64,000 nucleotides of DNA from Ruditapes philippinarum (taxonomy: Eukaryota), in NCBI RefSeq assembly GCF_026571515.1, contig NW_026856822.1:1-64000 (forward strand), in the 5' to 3' direction. Position numbers: made by a program. Shown in pieces: positions 44,301 through 56,300 of the stretch. Within the stretch, counting starts at the first letter, position 1. Each line of letters opens with the position of its first letter.

Positions 44301-47300
44301 ACAAAATACATTATTTTGTAAAACCATCCAAAAGGTACAATAAACAGCACTAGAAAGTCAAGGAAATAACACCATTTTCAACCTCATATTTCAAAATTTT
44401 CTCGGTCTATGGGAGGGGACACCCCGCTCATGCCCACCCCAATTACATATATTTTTCTTAATTCCATATCAACTAAATATTTACAACTCATTTATAAGGT
44501 ATGTGCATCGCCACTCATAAGATGAGCTATAAAACACATCAATTACAATTTTTGTCACATGAACAAGATGCTGGTCCAATCTTCAATTTTAGGCCTGTTG
44601 AATTATGTTTGTCAAATTCGTCAACCCATATGTCAGCCCCCGCACCACCACCCCAGGAAACCATGTTCTGTATCCGCCCCTGCCGGAAATGACGCTTTAT
44701 GAGATAAAGTAGTTTATACTAATAAATATTATTTTGTTTTATTATGGGGGCTGTCAAGGGAGTAAGGACCAACGACTTGTCCTTGATTTAAGTACTTGTT
44801 GGTATTTTTCTTCCTTTGGACTAGTTACCCATATTTATGTTGTTTACATTCGCTATGACAGATGGTTAACCGATGGTAAACACTTGAGGCGCGCTAGACA
44901 CTTAAATTACCGTATATATTGTAAGCGATTTTGTAGTCATTTGAAGTATCGAGAAGTTGGCACTGACATCGAAGATCGAAGATCGAAATTCAGTTTCTAG
45001 TGAATTTCGAGCTAGCTTTGAACTTCGAGCTAGCTCGAAGATCGAAATTCAAAGTAAACAAAAGCTCAATTTCGAGCTGGAGTTGAATTTCGAGCCAGCT
45101 CAAACATCGAAATTCAAAGTTAGTTTAAGCCGGATTTCGAGCTGGAGTTGAATTTCGAGCCAGCTCGAAGATCGAAATTCAAAATTTTCAAAAGTTGAAT
45201 TTCGAGCTGGAGTTGAATTACGAGCCAGTTCGAAGATCGAAATTCAAAGTAAGCCTAAGGCGAATTTCGAGCTGAAGTTGAATTTCGAGCCAGCTCGAAG
45301 ATCGAAATTCAAAATTTTCAAAAGTTGAATTTCGAGCTGGAGTTGAATTTCGAGCCAGCTCGAAGATCGAAATTCAAAGAAAGCTTAAGGCGAATTTCGA
45401 GCTGGAGTTGAATTCCGAGCCAGCTCGAAGATCGAAATTCTAAATTTTCAAAAGAATCATTTCGAACTTGAGTTGAATTTCGAGACTGTTCGAAGATCAA
45501 AATTCAAAATGTGAAGAAAAAAAACGAATTTCGAGTTAGAATTGAATTTCGAGCAAGATCACAAATCGAAATTCTAAATTTTCAAAAGTCTAATTTCGAG
45601 CTTTAGTTGAATTTCGAGCCAGGTCGAAGATCAAAATTCAAAATTTTCAAAAGTTGAATTTCGAGTTGGAGTTGAATTTCGAGCCAGCTCGAAGATCGAA
45701 ATTCAAAATTTTCAAAACCTGAATTTCGAGCTGGAGTTGAATTTCGAGCCAGCTGAAAGATCGAAATTCAAAATTTTCTAAAACTCGAATTTTGAGCTGG
45801 AGTTGAATTTCGAGCCAGCTCGAGGATCGAAATTCAAAATTTTCAAAAGTTGAATTTCGAGCTGGGGTTGAATTTCGAGCCAGCTCGAAGATAGAAATTA
45901 AAAAATTTTTAAAAGTTGAATTTCGAGCTGGAGTTGAATTTCGAGCCAGCTCGAAGATCGAAATTCAAAATTTTCAAAAGTTGAATTTCGATCTTCGAGC
46001 TGGCTCGAAATTCAACTCCAGCTCGAAATTCAACTTTTAAAAATTTTGAATTTCGATCTTTCAGCTGGCTCGAAATTCAAATTCAAATTTTGATACTGTC
46101 ATTTGATCAAGTATTTAATCGGAAATAGTAATTAGCATAGTATTTTTTCAACGTATGCATATTCCTAAAGAAATATATCTATATATCAAGAAGCTTTTAG
46201 CATTATTATCAGTGTCACTACATCTGCATTGCAACATATTTAGCTACGCCCCTCAAAATTTTATATCATAAAATTTTAATGACACGTGACAGTGGCACGT
46301 GCGTCATTTTAAGCTAAGTGACAATAGAATAAAGTGAAATTTTATAACATTGACTAAAAGATAATGGCAGGAAATTATGATAAAGGTAAGCATTGTTTTT
46401 CAATACTAGATTTTTTAATATATATTTATTTCTTTTTATGTACAGCTATTTGCTGTAAAAAATTCTTGACCCAAGCCAATTCTAACAACTTTGATGATAT
46501 TTCAAACAGTTATACATATTAATAATTCGTGAGAAGTTCTTAGACAAATGATAAAACCTTACATTCAATGTCCTAAATAATTTCTCTTTGCTCCGGAATA
46601 AAACTAGCGACCCTTGCATGGATAACACATCTTAACATGCTTAACCGATACAATAATTATTATCTTATAAGAATTGTTTCTTTGTCTGATATTCGCGTTG
46701 ATAATATTTAATTCCGATGGCCACATAATTGATTTGAATAAATCTACAATACGGATGACTGGAATTCTCAATGATTTATATTCCGGTACATTATACTTCT
46801 TGCGTTATATTAAATTGTAAACATGTACCATCTTCATGAAAAGCATCATGTACTGCTTGTGTTTTCATACTTTTTCTTTTTTGTTAAAATGTATTTATAA
46901 GATACAATCAAAATTCTATGATACATTATTTGTAAAATGGATATCTCGTTTTATTTTCTAGATTTGGATGCGTATGAAGACTTAAAGGATGAGAATGAAC
47001 GACTACGAGCCGTTCTCTATTGTATAATGTGTAGGGAAAGACCAAAGAGCAGGGTTTTTATGCAATGTGGGCATCTTCTAATGTGTGAGAACTGTTATTA
47101 CTGTTGCAAGTACTGTCCTCTGTGTGGTGTTCGTATTGAAATGACCATCAAAATTCTTCGAGCTGCGTAAAATATAACAACCTATTGCTAAAACAATAAA
47201 CCAAAAAAAAAAAAAAAAAAAAAAAAAATACAGGTACATGTATATCGTTTCTTTAATATATGTTGAAATCCATCGTGAACAATTTTTATACGACAATGAA

Positions 47301-53300: not shown

Positions 53301-56300
53301 ACAACAATGTGAATCACACATTGTAACGTATCAATGGTTATTTCAATAGCAATATTAAGTCCACAGTAATATTGTTAACATAAAATATGAAGATTAAGAG
53401 TATCTGTGCAACCATTTTGTTACGGATTTCACGTTAATTTGGATTTTACAAGCGTAATTTTTACAAAATCATTTACGAGGCTCATCAATACCAAGCGTTT
53501 TGCAATATATTTTCAATGATTTCAATGTTATAATACTTCAGATATCTAGAGCGGATATTTGTCTTGCTTATATTCTGTCATTCATGTAAACCATTCACAA
53601 TTTCCCATAAAATTCCCTTGTCAAACAGAAATTTTCAACATTTACGAGCCTATCATTTACGGGACTCACCCTCTTTCACATTCTCTTGTGATTTACTCTG
53701 CTAGATTTGTTGAATTATTTCAACTTGTTAATGGACGTTGGTATTGTTGGAATAGTATTCTTCCACGAAAACAAAGAAGTATCCATGTTTTTTAAACATA
53801 CGCATCTGAAATGTGTTTTTAACTTGCAGTAGCTTCTAAAAATCATAAAACTGATATTGTAATTGGTATTCAGACGTTTTGACTATTATAGAGTTCAATC
53901 ATGGATACTTACTTTCATAAACGAATACATTTAAACTTATACTTCAATCACAAAAATTAAGTAAACATGAAAACAGGCGTGTCCCTTATCTGTCTATCTG
54001 TTTGTGAAGATATAATTGGTTGATATTGGTTGAATGTACGTTTGTCTGATCAAGATTAAATGGTAAAATTAATTTTGGAATATTCATTCGAGTAATAGGA
54101 AACTTTGAGTCCACGCTTATCAATGTTAACGTAATAATATTGAAGTATCTTGTATTAATTGTAAGAAAGTTTTTTGGAGCAGATATGGTGTAGAGAACTA
54201 CCTAGTATTTGTAGTTCTGAAAACTTTATAACATTTTCATAGATGTTTTAGTTAAATGGGATATAACTTTTCATGCATCTTGGTAAAAAATATTTTAGTT
54301 TACCCAGATACTTAATATCTGTTTAAAAAAACATACTGTACATTGTTGGCTGTCACGGGAGTTAGGACCACTGACTTGTCGCTGCCGCGGCAGCGAGTTT
54401 TTGTGGGTGTGATAATCAGTGATGTAAAACTGTCTGTTATAAACCCTGAACTATAAATAGCATGCAGTGTTAACCTGCAGAGAGAATGTTAACAAAAACA
54501 GCTGATTTTACACTAACTCAAAGATTTATTAAAGACATTATCAAGTCATCTTGACCAGATATTATTTTTGTAGTAAGTTGTTTTTTTCTTTTTTTTCACT
54601 GGAATGCTGTATGTGTCCTTCATCAAGTCAGACAATTATATCAACATCCAAATGATGTGCCTTACATGGGGCATTTCTTTTAGGAACAACCTGCTAAAAA
54701 ATGTTCTTGACAGGAATTTAAAGTATTTTTTAAACTGTAATTGTATAAATATTTTATGCATATGCAACATTTAGTTTGATTAACATTTGTGAAATGTAAT
54801 TTTTGACTACAAGATATTCACAACAAAATATAGTGTAAATGAAATATACCTGTAAGTTACTTTTGCTGTTTTCATGAAGTTTAAACCATTCAAATACAAG
54901 TTAAATCAGTACTTTGAAATTTAAAAAAAAATCATAGATTAATGGATCATTGTAAATTTGTTGGATTTGATAAAGCAAGTCAGTAAAAGTTATTGTTTTA
55001 TTCAGCATTCCAAAGTGTCGTCTGCTGAAAATCTCCCTCCCTGAAAAACCTTTAAGTACTTGTTACCTTTATTTATATGTTTGTTTCCCTATCAAGTAAA
55101 AACCGATGCGTATGTAATTGGTAAACATTTGAGACGCTAGACACTTAAATTACCGTATATATTCTAAGAGATTCTGTAGTGTTAAAGGTAATCTTACTGT
55201 CATTTGATCAAGTATTTAATCGGAAATAGTAATTAGCATAGTATTTTTTTCAACATATGCATATTCTTAAAGAAATATATCTATATATTAAGAAGCTTTT
55301 AGCATTATTATCATTGTGACTACATCCGCAATGCAACATATTTAGCTACGCCCCTCAGATGATATAAAATTTTAATAAAACGTGACAGTGGCACGCACAT
55401 CATTTAAAGCTAAGTGACTATAGAATAAAGTGAAACTTTATTATCATTGACTAAAATAATGGCAGGAAATTATGATAAAGGTAAGCATTGTTTTTCAATA
55501 GTAGATTTTTTAATATATATATATATATTTTTTTTTTATGTACAGCTATTTGCTGATATTTGCGTTGATAATATTTAATTCCGATGGCCACATAATTGAT
55601 TTGAATAAATCTACAATACGGATGACTGGAATTCTCAATGATTTATATTCCGGTACATTATACTTCTTGCGTTATATTAAATTGTAAACATGTACCATTT
55701 TCATGAAAAGCATCATGTACTGCTTGTGTTTTCATACTATTTCTTTTTTGTTAAAATGTATTTGTAAGATACAATCAAAATTCTATGATACATTATTTAT
55801 AAAATGGATATCTCGTTTTATTTTCTAGATTTGGATGCGTATGAAGACTTAAAGGATGAGAATGAACGACTACGAGCCGTTCTCTATTGTATAATGTGTA
55901 GGGAAAAACCAAAGAGCAGGGTTTTTATGCAATGTGGGCATCTTCTAATGTGTGAGAACTGTTATTACTGTTGCAAGTACTGTCCTCTGTGTGGTGTTCG
56001 TATTGAAATGACCATCAAAATTCTTCGAGCTGCGTGAAATATAACAACTGTATTGCTAAATCAATAAACCAAAAAAATAAAAAATACAGGTATATCGTTT
56101 CTTTAATATATGTTGAAATCTATCGTGAATAATTTTTATATGATAATGGCTACGAAATGAACAAAAATTTAAAAAGACAAATCATTATACATGTATTAGA
56201 TCTGATCTTGCTGATCTTGAAACTGTGATATTTCTTCTGTGATTACATTACATTTCACTTACTGTATTGTTTAATCTTAATTAAAACTTTTTAAAACATT

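What the first reader, a model, noticed from the sequence alone, without database searches (positions are those of the whole stretch)
46364..56037. Pair of BIR-less, RING-only IAP-like microproteins lacking the linchpin arginine: candidate decoy regulators
Seen: two 2-exon genes of 76 aa with a good start context (ATAATGG), an in-frame TAA 9 nt upstream in copy 1, and no acceptor AG at that position in copy 2. There are TATA-like and CACGTG motifs just upstream and no BIR exons anywhere nearby. The RING reads CPLCG instead of CPxCR, has extra Cys (CYYCCKYC), and ends IKILRAA without the usual terminal aromatic residue. Known: IAP RINGs dimerise via the pre-RING helix and C-terminal tail, the Arg after the last Cys primes E2~Ub, and bivalves have greatly expanded IAP families. 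Inference: these may heterodimerise with full-length IAPs and damp or redirect their E3 activity, forming a microprotein layer of apoptosis or immune control.
Basis: partly seen in the sequence, partly recalled or inferred. Interest (0 to 1): 0.7.

Follow-up and report, generated by a model that had tools for sequence, protein, structure and literature searches.

The report
Duplicated stand-alone IAP-type RING gene
A clam genome carries two nearby copies of a tiny gene-like unit that encodes only the RING "tail" domain of an apoptosis-inhibitor (IAP) protein; such BIR-less leftovers of the expanded clam IAP family already sit in databases, and whether they regulate real IAPs is untested.

Summary
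Two copies 8.9 kb apart each carry a 68-codon RING exon behind a phase-1 acceptor. Each also has a 22-nt ATG exon with the best donor site in the 2 kb upstream. The model gives 76 aa.

The RING is IAP-type. It passes Pfam zf-C3HC4_3, and cIAP2, cIAP1 and XIAP are the best solved relatives by sequence. No BIR is detectable anywhere in the 64-kb window. The host is a venerid-like clam, where published work places the IAP RING in one terminal exon.

The coding sequence differs at 1 of 228 sites between copies, against 63 of 1153 in the flanks. That fits constraint or gene conversion. Expression could not be checked.

The "missing linchpin Arg" is real (Gly) but not distinctive:
- Human XIAP has Tyr there.
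- 62 of 135 nearest relatives lack Arg, and Gly is the second commonest residue.
- Short BIR-less relatives lack these features no more often than BIR-bearing ones.

Short RING-only "IAP-like" proteins are already RefSeq models in Mercenaria (86 aa) and Mya (94 aa). A homodimer model passes its controls, possibly from memory of solved IAP dimers. Heterodimer and decoy action stay untested.

Verdict: a new member of a known kind, of modest interest.

The parts
46364..46385 (+). copy 1, candidate coding exon 1 (22 nt, 7 codons + 1 base), ATG in ATAATGG, donor AAG|GTAAGC
   Evidence: Sequence. Of 68 GT dinucleotides in the 2 kb upstream of exon 2, it is the only one matching the donor consensus at 8 of 9 positions. 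It is in the right phase behind a Kozak-like ATG and identical in copy 2.
46386..46961 (+). copy 1, candidate intron (GT..AG, pyrimidine tract before AG). Contains a 233-nt stretch absent from copy 2 and an alternative in-frame ATG at 46937
   Evidence: No Rfam match in it.
46962..47170 (+). copy 1, terminal RING exon (phase-1 acceptor, 68 full codons 46964-47167, stop TAA)
   Evidence: Pfam PF13920 E 6.6e-09, 35.9 bits against a cut-off of 27. PDB cIAP2 E 9.5e-09. AF2 pLDDT 96.2.
47195..47228 (+). copy 1, AATAAA (47195-47200), then CC, then a run of 26 A (47203-47228), starting 25 nt after the stop
   Evidence: Sequence. Copy 2 has AATAAA at 56063-56068 and a shorter, interrupted A run.
55459..55480 (+). 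copy 2, candidate coding exon 1
   Evidence: Identical to copy 1 over the 22 nt.
55481..55828 (+). copy 2, candidate intron; alternative in-frame ATG at 55804
55829..56037 (+). copy 2, terminal RING exon (68 full codons 55831-56034, stop TGA)
   Evidence: Pfam PF13920 E 6.3e-09. tblastn 98.5% to copy 1.
46094..47736 (+). duplicated block, copy 1 (pairs with 55195-56628). Further paired pieces: 44874-44937 with 55119-55180, and 51645-52283 with 56638-57210
   Evidence: blastn 90-91% and 80%. Mismatches: 7.6% upstream, 2.3% intron, 0.5% CDS, 6.4% downstream.
55195..56628 (+). duplicated block, copy 2
47737..51644 (+). non-LTR retrotransposon inserted into the copy-1 block (absent from copy 2). 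Not part of the gene, but it dates and separates the copies
   Evidence: Break in the copy-to-copy alignment. PHD finger, endonuclease and RT domains.
46283..46301 (+). two CACGTG words 81 and 68 nt before the copy-1 ATG; both are lost in copy 2

Best explanation
These are two local duplicates of a small gene made from the terminal 'RING exon' of a clam IAP-family gene, joined to a minimal new first exon. An internal ATG could be used instead of that exon. The product is a 76-77-aa stand-alone IAP-type RING protein.

It is one of many BIR-less by-products of the partial duplication and domain shuffling that accompany the bivalve IAP expansion.

Shown:
- the RING fold with all eight zinc ligands;
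- the pre-RING helix and an IAP-length tail;
- the IAP-like gene structure;
- no BIR in the window;
- a coding sequence conserved far better than the flanks.

Inferred:
- It is expressed.
- It forms RING dimers through the helix and tail.
- It still binds E2, since the hydrophobic positions in CIMC and CPLC are kept.
- It is a poor activator of E2~Ub, because the linchpin is Gly and the tail position that is aromatic in most relatives is Leu.
- On its own it would be a weak ligase without a substrate-binding domain. Paired with an IAP RING it would lower that dimer's output.
For: RING identity:
- Pfam zf-C3HC4_3 is above cut-off in both copies.
- Solved relatives by sequence: cIAP2 9.5e-09, cIAP1 2.8e-08, XIAP 4.1e-07, ahead of MYLIP 7.9e-06, BIRC7 1.9e-05, MUL1 and MDM2.
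- AF2 gives pLDDT 96.2 with a helix at residues 2-18. Fold matches are IDOL, cIAP2, XIAP, cIAP1 and BIRC7 RINGs.
- The library search found 889 relatives at E<=1e-3. Of the best 150, 149 carry zf-C3HC4_3 and 32 (Pfam) or 35 (jackhmmer) carry BIR.
- In the tree the copies sit in an SH-aLRT 81 group of 28 rows with 7 BIR-bearing proteins.

Gene structure and host:
[quoted passage not shown] The window is from a close relative: an ASNS exon is 93% identical to Mercenaria mercenaria.

Constraint:
- 1 mismatch in 228 coding sites against 63 in 1153 non-coding sites, Fisher p = 2e-4, and no indel in the CDS.

Gene signals:
- The exon-1 donor is the single best of 68 GTs, in phase, behind a Kozak-like ATG, in both copies. 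AATAAA follows the stop in both.

Same architecture elsewhere:
- 32 of the best 150 relatives are at most 112 aa, and 31 of them start with Met.
- RefSeq has XP_045180353.2 (Mercenaria, 86 aa, 'death-associated inhibitor of apoptosis 2-like', 41% identical to the window peptide) and XP_052809855.1 (Mya, 94 aa).
- The nearest Atlas clusters have representatives of 68 and 63 aa, with 194 and 89 members, commonest phylum Mollusca.

Dimer:
- Homodimer model score 0.40, best of 3 controls 0.02. That mark was reached by 21 of 30 proteins solved as pairs of one chain and 0 of 23 solved as single chains (microbes), and by 17 of 29 on eukaryotes.
- The runs agree in at least 97% of contacts, and partner pLDDT is at least 86.
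- The interface uses residues 4-18 and 62-68. Because IAP RING dimers are solved, the pass may be from memory.

Catalytic features:
- Small linchpin side chains (Ala, Ser) gave minimal activity in RNF38 (PMC12326332, section 8 read).
- XIAP F495A loses ligase activity (PMC3944466 and PMC5503512, passages).
Against: - No transcript or protein evidence could be consulted.
- Exon 1 is 7 codons with no homology support, and an unspliced ATG start is equally possible.
- The intron next to exon 2 is also well conserved (8 of 343 mismatches), so a gene-conversion tract could explain much of the coding identity. Against the intron rate alone, 1 change where 5.3 are expected gives Poisson p of about 0.03 (my arithmetic).
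- The single coding change is non-synonymous.
- Upstream motifs are not conserved.
- No relative above 46% identity exists in a 1.8-billion-protein library that includes several clams. Word-based searches found nothing. The family is therefore fast-evolving or the locus is an orphan.
- The neighbourhood is satellite and transposon DNA.
- Gly linchpin and a non-aromatic tail also occur in BIR-bearing relatives and are not enriched in short forms. They do not mark a special 'decoy' class.
Confidence: 0.5

Rival explanations
1. Silent relics. The copies are orphan terminal exons left by partial duplication of an IAP gene. They are not transcribed or translated, and the ORFs are intact only because the copies were homogenised by gene conversion or are young.
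For: - The low-divergence tract covers the intron 3' half as well as the exon.
- The one coding difference is non-synonymous and the stop codon also changed.
- Promoter-like motifs differ between the copies.
- A LINE sits 570 bp downstream of copy 1 and a satellite directly upstream.
- No close homologue exists.
- The hard-clam paper reports that most retroposed IAP copies are not transcribed (PMC7831173, passage in section 13).
Against: - Flanks are 6-8% diverged with many indels, yet the CDS has no indel, no stop and 1 of 228 changes (p = 2e-4).
- The low-divergence tract ends right at the stop codon.
- ATG, donor, acceptor and AATAAA are all kept in both copies.
- All zinc ligands and core residues are intact.
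- RefSeq models of the same architecture exist in related clams.
Confidence: 0.3
2. A real small gene, but an ordinary active E3 rather than an attenuated one or a decoy. It would work with E2s that do not need an Arg linchpin, or gain substrates through partners.
For: - XIAP with a Tyr linchpin is an active ligase, and the linchpin residue varies across E3s (PMC12326332, abstract and passages).
- Gly is the second commonest linchpin residue in this family (17 of 135), 5 of them BIR-bearing.
- The E2-contact hydrophobic positions are kept (alignment to cIAP2).
- Small stand-alone RING proteins of this fold occur in invertebrate iridoviruses and giant viruses.
Against: - Both features that prime donor ubiquitin in dimeric IAP RINGs are missing together. 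That combination is seen in only 13 of 135 relatives.
- RNF38 Ala and Ser linchpin variants had minimal activity (PMC12326332, section 8).
- XIAP F495A is inactive (PMC3944466, passage).
Confidence: 0.15
3. Exon 2 is the last exon of a longer gene whose upstream coding exons (BIR or other) lie elsewhere. The 22-nt 'exon 1' would be a chance match.
For: - The phase-1 acceptor is what a downstream exon of a clam IAP gene would have (PMC7831173, section 8).
- Exon 1 has no homology support.
Against: - No BIR anywhere in the window, which includes 46 kb upstream.
- An ASNS-like gene on the opposite strand occupies 39.2-41.6 kb and a satellite lies in between.
- The best donor in the 2 kb upstream is exactly the in-phase one.
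- For copy 2 the upstream space is copy 1, a LINE and repeats.
Confidence: 0.08
4. The 'pair' is an assembly artefact: two diverged haplotypes of one locus laid in tandem.
For: Bivalve genomes are highly heterozygous (my own knowledge). The copies are 91% alike with large presence/absence differences.
Against: - No N run lies between the copies; the only ones are at 17.6 and 29.5 kb.
- 2.8 kb of unrelated sequence (52284-55118) separates the blocks.
- 6-8% flank divergence is high for alleles.
Confidence: 0.05

Closest known systems
Short BIR-less 'IAP-like' RefSeq models of related clams: XP_045180353.2 (Mercenaria mercenaria, 86 aa) and XP_052809855.1 (Mya arenaria, 94 aa)
   Same: Short N-terminus, pre-RING helix, zf-C3HC4_3 RING, tail of about 13 residues and no BIR. 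There is an extra Cys in the loop before the last CPxC. The Mercenaria protein also lacks Arg/Lys at the linchpin and an aromatic at tail position +11. It falls in the same SH-aLRT 88 group as the window copies.
   Different: Only 41% identical over 61 residues, so it is a paralogue or a fast-evolving orthologue. Their N-termini are longer (38 and 46 residues before the first Cys, against 27 in the spliced model). No functional data are known to me for any of them.
RING domains of cIAP1/cIAP2/XIAP/BIRC7 (dimeric IAP RINGs)
   Same: Best sequence matches among solved structures. They share the fold, pre-RING helix and tail and the same spacing of the eight ligands. The predicted homodimer uses the helix and tail.
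   Different: - No BIR, UBA or CARD.
- The linchpin is Gly (Arg in cIAP1/2 per the alignments; BIRC7 Arg is recalled; Tyr in XIAP).
- Leu stands where XIAP has F495 (alignment to the F495L mutant entry 4ic3, named).
- There are two extra Cys in the last loop.
IDOL/MYLIP RING
   Same: Best structural match (TM 0.78-0.83). It is also a helix-RING-tail dimer.
   Different: Weaker by sequence (E 7.9e-06 against 9.5e-09 for cIAP2). MYLIP carries a FERM domain (my own knowledge), and no other domain is present here.
MDMX in the MDM2-MDMX RING heterodimer
   Same: A RING of the same dimeric class (hits). By established knowledge it has little activity of its own and acts through heterodimerisation. 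This is the closest precedent for a 'partner' RING.
   Different: MDMX supports its partner through its tail aromatic (my own knowledge). The clam protein lacks that aromatic, so it would be expected to weaken a partner rather than help it. MDMX is a large multidomain protein.
Small stand-alone RING proteins of invertebrate iridoviruses and giant viruses
   Same: Same fold in proteins of about 90-190 aa, for example 132 aa in Invertebrate iridescent virus 30 (TMq 0.88).
   Different: 24-36% identity over the aligned part. They are viral and their functions are unknown to me.

Membership tests
IAP / BIRC family | at least one BIR domain in the protein | tested here: not met
   No BIR in the ORFs or anywhere in the 64-kb window. 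tblastn with 61 BIR segments gave a best E of 0.093. A BIR HMM against 3495 six-frame pieces gave a best E of 2.5, while the same HMM refinds the 35 proteins it was built from. Published surveys drop BIR-less proteins (PMC8917759, passage).
IAP / BIRC family | C-terminal RING of the IAP type, encoded in one terminal exon (in clams) | tested here: met
   The best solved relatives are cIAP2, cIAP1 and XIAP. The whole helix, RING and tail lie in one terminal exon behind a phase-1 acceptor. Compare PMC7831173, section 8.
Pfam zf-C3HC4_3 (PF13920) RING fingers | score above the gathering cut-off and C3HC4 ligands in cross-brace spacing | tested here: met
   35.9 and 36.0 bits against 27. C20, C23, C35, H37, C41, C44, C51 and C54 of the exon-2 peptide fall on the invariant or nearly invariant columns. 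AF2 pLDDT is 96.2.
Dimeric RING E3s of the IAP/MDM2/IDOL class | dimer through the pre-RING helix and C-terminal tail | tested here: inconclusive
   Prediction only. Homodimer score 0.40 against a best control of 0.02, with the interface at residues 4-18 and 62-68. The pass may come from memory of solved IAP dimers.
Dimeric RING E3s of the IAP/MDM2/IDOL class | cationic linchpin after the last zinc ligand | tested here: not met
   Gly55. Among 135 parsed relatives: Arg 73, Gly 17, Lys 10, other 35.
Dimeric RING E3s of the IAP/MDM2/IDOL class | aromatic residue near the C-terminus that supports donor ubiquitin in trans | tested here: not met
   Leu65 at position +11 after the last Cys. 99 of 135 relatives have F, Y or W there and 5 have Leu.
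Microprotein regulators (small single-domain paralogues that titrate multidomain relatives) | small protein consisting only of the interaction domain of larger relatives | tested here: met
   The model is 76-77 aa and is only helix, RING and tail. Relatives include 35 BIR-bearing proteins of up to 2111 aa. This depends on the gene model being right.
Microprotein regulators (small single-domain paralogues that titrate multidomain relatives) | binds the larger relatives and changes their activity | not testable with these tools
   No IAP of this species was at hand, and the single complex job went on the homodimer.
Processed retrocopy | intronless copy of an mRNA ending in a poly(A) tail | tested here: not met
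   A run of 26 A follows AATAAACC in copy 1. However, the exon is preceded by a pyrimidine tract, an AG and a stop 13 codons upstream, i.e. intron sequence. The A run starts only 2 nt after the hexamer.

The most novel reading that the evidence does not exclude
Bivalves may run a layer of RING-only, IAP-derived microproteins that enter IAP RING dimers and poison both active sites at once. The microprotein's own site lacks the linchpin. Its tail lacks the aromatic that the partner's E2~Ub needs in trans. This would tune IAP turnover and apoptosis or immune signalling in genomes with over 100 IAPs. The pair in this window would be two members.
Probability: 0.12. Interest if true: 0.65.

Novelty: new member of a known kind. 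Interest (0 to 1): 0.3.

Why it matters
Published IAP surveys in molluscs define the family by the BIR domain and discard everything else (PMC8917759, passage). RING-only offshoots are therefore uncounted, although they are numerous in sequence databases.

If some are expressed and pair with IAP RINGs, they would add a regulatory tier to the most expanded apoptosis-inhibitor family known. If not, they are a useful marker of how often partial duplication sheds domains.

For this locus alone the stake is small. It is one more product of a documented process.

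Tried and rejected
- Word-based homologue searches with the exon-2 peptide found nothing. Near length: no candidate. Longer: 6 candidates, none at E<=1e-3.
- Retrocopy origin was considered because of AATAAACC followed by 26 A. It was rejected because intron-type sequence and a stop precede the exon.
- An intronic RNA gene as the reason for the conserved intron half: no Rfam match in the intron. 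All 25 sub-threshold matches lie on the satellite hairpin or other inverted repeats, and none reaches a gathering score. No tRNA was found.
- Further RING copies in the window: none.
- The tree of 152 RING segments is poorly resolved: 68 columns, with 89 of 149 inner branches open. It places the copies only loosely, and I draw no donor or order of events from it.
- Literature on XIAP F495L: no paper was found. Silke et al. 2005 is not held, so RING-mediated IAP cross-regulation is cited only through a review passage (PMC3972657).
- Search for 'RING-only' + IAP + BIR: 3 papers, none on such proteins.
- Search for microprotein/RING/dominant-negative terms: nothing relevant among the 12 listed of 64.
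- The genome-contig collection holds only bacteria and archaea and was not used.

Full report
**What is there**

The window holds two copies of an 82-codon stop-to-stop frame, at 46922-47170 and 55789-56037 on the + strand. Read with the sequence, each has three parts:
- a pyrimidine tract and AG (46960-46961; 55827-55828);
- 68 full codons (46964-47167; 55831-56034);
- a stop (TAA in copy 1, TGA in copy 2).

Upstream, an ATG in ATAATGG opens a 22-nt frame that ends AAAG|GTAAGC. It lies 576 nt upstream in copy 1 (46364) and 348 nt upstream in copy 2 (55459).

The joined protein was never assembled or sent anywhere. Exon 1 encodes only 7 residues, too short for any search, so all searches rest on exon 2.

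An in-frame ATG with an equally good context (46937; 55804) lies 8 codons before the acceptor. It would give a 77-aa product without splicing. The RING core is the same either way.

**Is the gene model more than chance?**

- A RING profile built from relatives, without the window copies, finds both at E 1.4e-23 and 1.9e-23 and nothing else in the window. tblastn also finds only these two.
- There are 68 GT dinucleotides in the 2 kb upstream of copy 1's exon 2. Only one matches the donor consensus at 8 of 9 positions, and it is the proposed one. It is in the required phase, 22 nt behind an ATG with A at -3 and G at +4.
- The same site ranks first among the in-phase start-donor pairs in both copies: 17 pairs in copy 1 and 37 in copy 2.
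- AATAAA follows the stop by 25 nt in both copies.
Both CACGTG words are absent from copy 2. TATA-like words occur 2.7 per kb in this A+T-rich window.

**The duplication**

- Block 46094-47736 matches 55195-56628 at 90-91%.
- 44874-44937 matches 55119-55180.
- 51645-52283 matches 56638-57210 at 80%.
- Copy 1 has taken up a 3.9-kb non-LTR retrotransposon (47737-51644) with PHD, endonuclease and RT domains.
- Copy 1 is preceded by a 65-bp satellite. Copy 2 lacks both.
- 2.8 kb of unrelated sequence separates the blocks.

Mismatches between the copies:

| Region | Mismatches | Sites |
|---|---|---|
| Upstream | 20 | 262 |
| Exon 1 | 0 | 22 |
| Intron | 8 | 343 |
| Exon 2 | 1 | 206 |
| Downstream | 35 | 548 |

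- Coding against non-coding is 1/228 against 63/1153, Fisher p = 2e-4. The CDS has no indel.
- The one coding change is conservative but non-synonymous (R26K).
- The intron half next to the exon is also well kept, so gene conversion is a live alternative to purifying selection. Against the intron rate alone the deficit is marginal: 5.3 changes expected and 1 seen, Poisson p about 0.03 (my arithmetic).

**What the protein is**

- Pfam: zf-C3HC4_3, 35.9 and 36.0 bits against a cut-off of 27.
- Solved structures by sequence: cIAP2 9.5e-09, cIAP1 2.8e-08, XIAP 4.1e-07, MYLIP 7.9e-06, BIRC7 1.9e-05, then MUL1, MDM2 and MDM4 (47 distinct chains at E<=1).
- AF2 with 107 relatives: pLDDT 96.2, helix at residues 2-18, then the RING.
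- Best folds: IDOL, cIAP2, XIAP, cIAP1 and BIRC7 RINGs, at TM 0.7-0.83. In the viral library: IAP RINGs and small iridovirus and giant-virus RING proteins.
- HMMER against 1.84 billion representatives: 889 hits at E<=1e-3, best 1.6e-14. Identities among the best 150 run from 29% to 46%. Nothing close exists.
- Of those 150, 149 carry zf-C3HC4_3. 32 (Pfam) or 35 (jackhmmer) carry BIR.
- Named top hits are mollusc proteins from Haliotis, Pecten, Dreissena, Mercenaria and Mya, mostly called IAP-like.
- In a poorly resolved tree the copies sit with BIR-less proteins, including the 86-aa Mercenaria model, in a group with SH-aLRT 88. That group lies inside a group of 28 rows with 7 BIR-bearing proteins (SH-aLRT 81). 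BIR presence needs at least 26 changes on the tree.
- So the RING belongs to the mollusc IAP-RING radiation, in which BIR-bearing and BIR-less proteins are interleaved.

**No BIR, and the host**

- tblastn with 61 BIR segments (best E 0.093) and a BIR HMM on all 3495 six-frame pieces (best E 2.5) find nothing in 64 kb.
- Upstream of copy 1 lie the satellite and, on the other strand, asparagine-synthetase-like exons at 39.2-41.6 kb.
- One ASNS exon is 93% identical to Mercenaria mercenaria and 88% to Mactra antiquata. The window therefore comes from a venerid-like clam whose proteins are not in the database.
- Song et al. [quoted passage not shown] The locus looks like that terminal exon set free.

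**The catalytic features**

- The residue after the last Cys is Gly. Position +11, aromatic in most relatives, is Leu.
- Human XIAP has Tyr at the linchpin and is active. Y485R makes it more active. In RNF38, Lys and Met variants keep some activity, while Ala, Ser, Gln, Tyr, Trp and Glu variants show minimal activity (PMC12326332: abstract, passages, sections 6 and 8 read).
- XIAP F495A abolishes ligase activity (PMC3944466 and PMC5503512, passages).
- Among the 135 of 150 relatives that my pattern could parse, the linchpin is Arg 73, Gly 17, Lys 10, other 35. Position +11 is F, Y or W in 99 and Leu in 5.
- Both features are missing in 13 of 135, including the Mercenaria 86-aa model.
- BIR-bearing and short BIR-less relatives do not differ: Arg/Lys in 23/35 against 26/39 (p = 1.0), and aromatic in 23/35 against 30/39 (p = 0.31).
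- This sample was chosen by likeness to the query, which may inflate Gly and Leu.
- So the features predict a weak activator of E2~Ub, but they do not single out RING-only proteins as a decoy class.

**Dimer**

- Two copies of the exon-2 peptide score 0.40. The best of 3 controls scores 0.02.
- That mark was reached by 21 of 30 proteins solved as pairs of one chain and 0 of 23 solved as single chains (microbes). On eukaryotes it was 17 of 29, but only 1 of 7 without an older solved relative.
- The runs agree in at least 97% of contacts, and partner pLDDT is at least 86.
- The interface is the pre-RING helix (residues 4-18), residues 31-39 and the tail (62-68), as in IAP RING dimers. Because such dimers are solved, the pass may be from memory.
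- RINGs enable homo- and heterodimerisation of IAPs (PMC3972657, passage). A heterodimer with a clam IAP could not be tested.

**How known is it?**

- 32 of the best 150 relatives are at most 112 aa, and 31 of them start with Met.
- RefSeq lists 86-aa and 94-aa IAP-like models in Mercenaria and Mya.
- The nearest Atlas clusters have representatives of 68 and 63 aa, with 194 and 89 members, commonest phylum Mollusca. One is auto-named BIRC7-B-like.
- The mollusc IAP papers prune BIR-less proteins (PMC8917759, passage). [quoted passage not shown]
- Searches for such a description found none.
They may list such genes or their expression.

**What stayed unchecked**

- Expression.
- Orthologous loci and intron positions in other clams.
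- Heterodimerisation.

**Verdict**

Most likely (0.5) this is a duplicated small gene for a stand-alone, dimeric, catalytically attenuated IAP-type RING protein, born from the terminal exon of a clam IAP gene.

The main rival (0.3) is a silent exon relic kept alike by gene conversion.

The decoy idea is mechanistically reasonable. In a dimeric RING, a partner without linchpin and without tail aromatic should weaken both sites. This rests on inference only.

Noticed in passing
window 44938-46093: A 65-bp satellite of about 15 copies lies directly upstream of RING copy 1 and is absent before copy 2. Its end forms a long inverted repeat (45836-46077) that draws only sub-threshold miRNA-family matches.
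   Followed up: partly
window 47737-51644: A non-LTR retrotransposon is inserted in the copy-1 block. ORF1 has a PHD finger (48106-48771). ORF2 has endonuclease and RT domains (48230-50428). The rest of the RT is broken over several frames.
   Followed up: partly
window 39185-41634 (- strand): Asparagine-synthetase-like exons. tblastn with the Mercenaria protein finds residues 71-158 and 317-553 only. Residues 122-158 and 317-340 lie almost adjacent (41482-41372 and 41370-41299). This is either a partial or rearranged copy, or short exons were missed.
   Followed up: no
window 51828-52123 and 56820-57059: Inverted-repeat, MITE-like sequence in the downstream part of both duplicated blocks. It draws sub-threshold miRNA-family hits at 52105-52208.
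   Followed up: no
window 61660-61959 (- strand): A fragment of a retroelement integrase (Integrase_H2C2 zinc-binding domain, E 2.7e-09).
   Followed up: no
window 37625-38213: Four CACGTG words spaced 184-203 nt apart, probably a tandem repeat. CACGTG occurs 17 times in the window against 6.4 expected.
   Followed up: no
window 47615-47736, 56600-56673 and 19628-19786: The 3' end of each duplicated block matches a stretch at about 19.7 kb on the opposite strand (80-97%). This is a dispersed repeat at the point where the LINE went in.
   Followed up: no
window 17585-17742 and 29450-29754: Two N runs (158 and 305 nt), left as they are.
   Followed up: no
window 12144-12538 and 20777-21175: His-, Ser- and Gln-rich simple-sequence frames, i.e. 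low-complexity repeats, not obviously coding.
   Followed up: no
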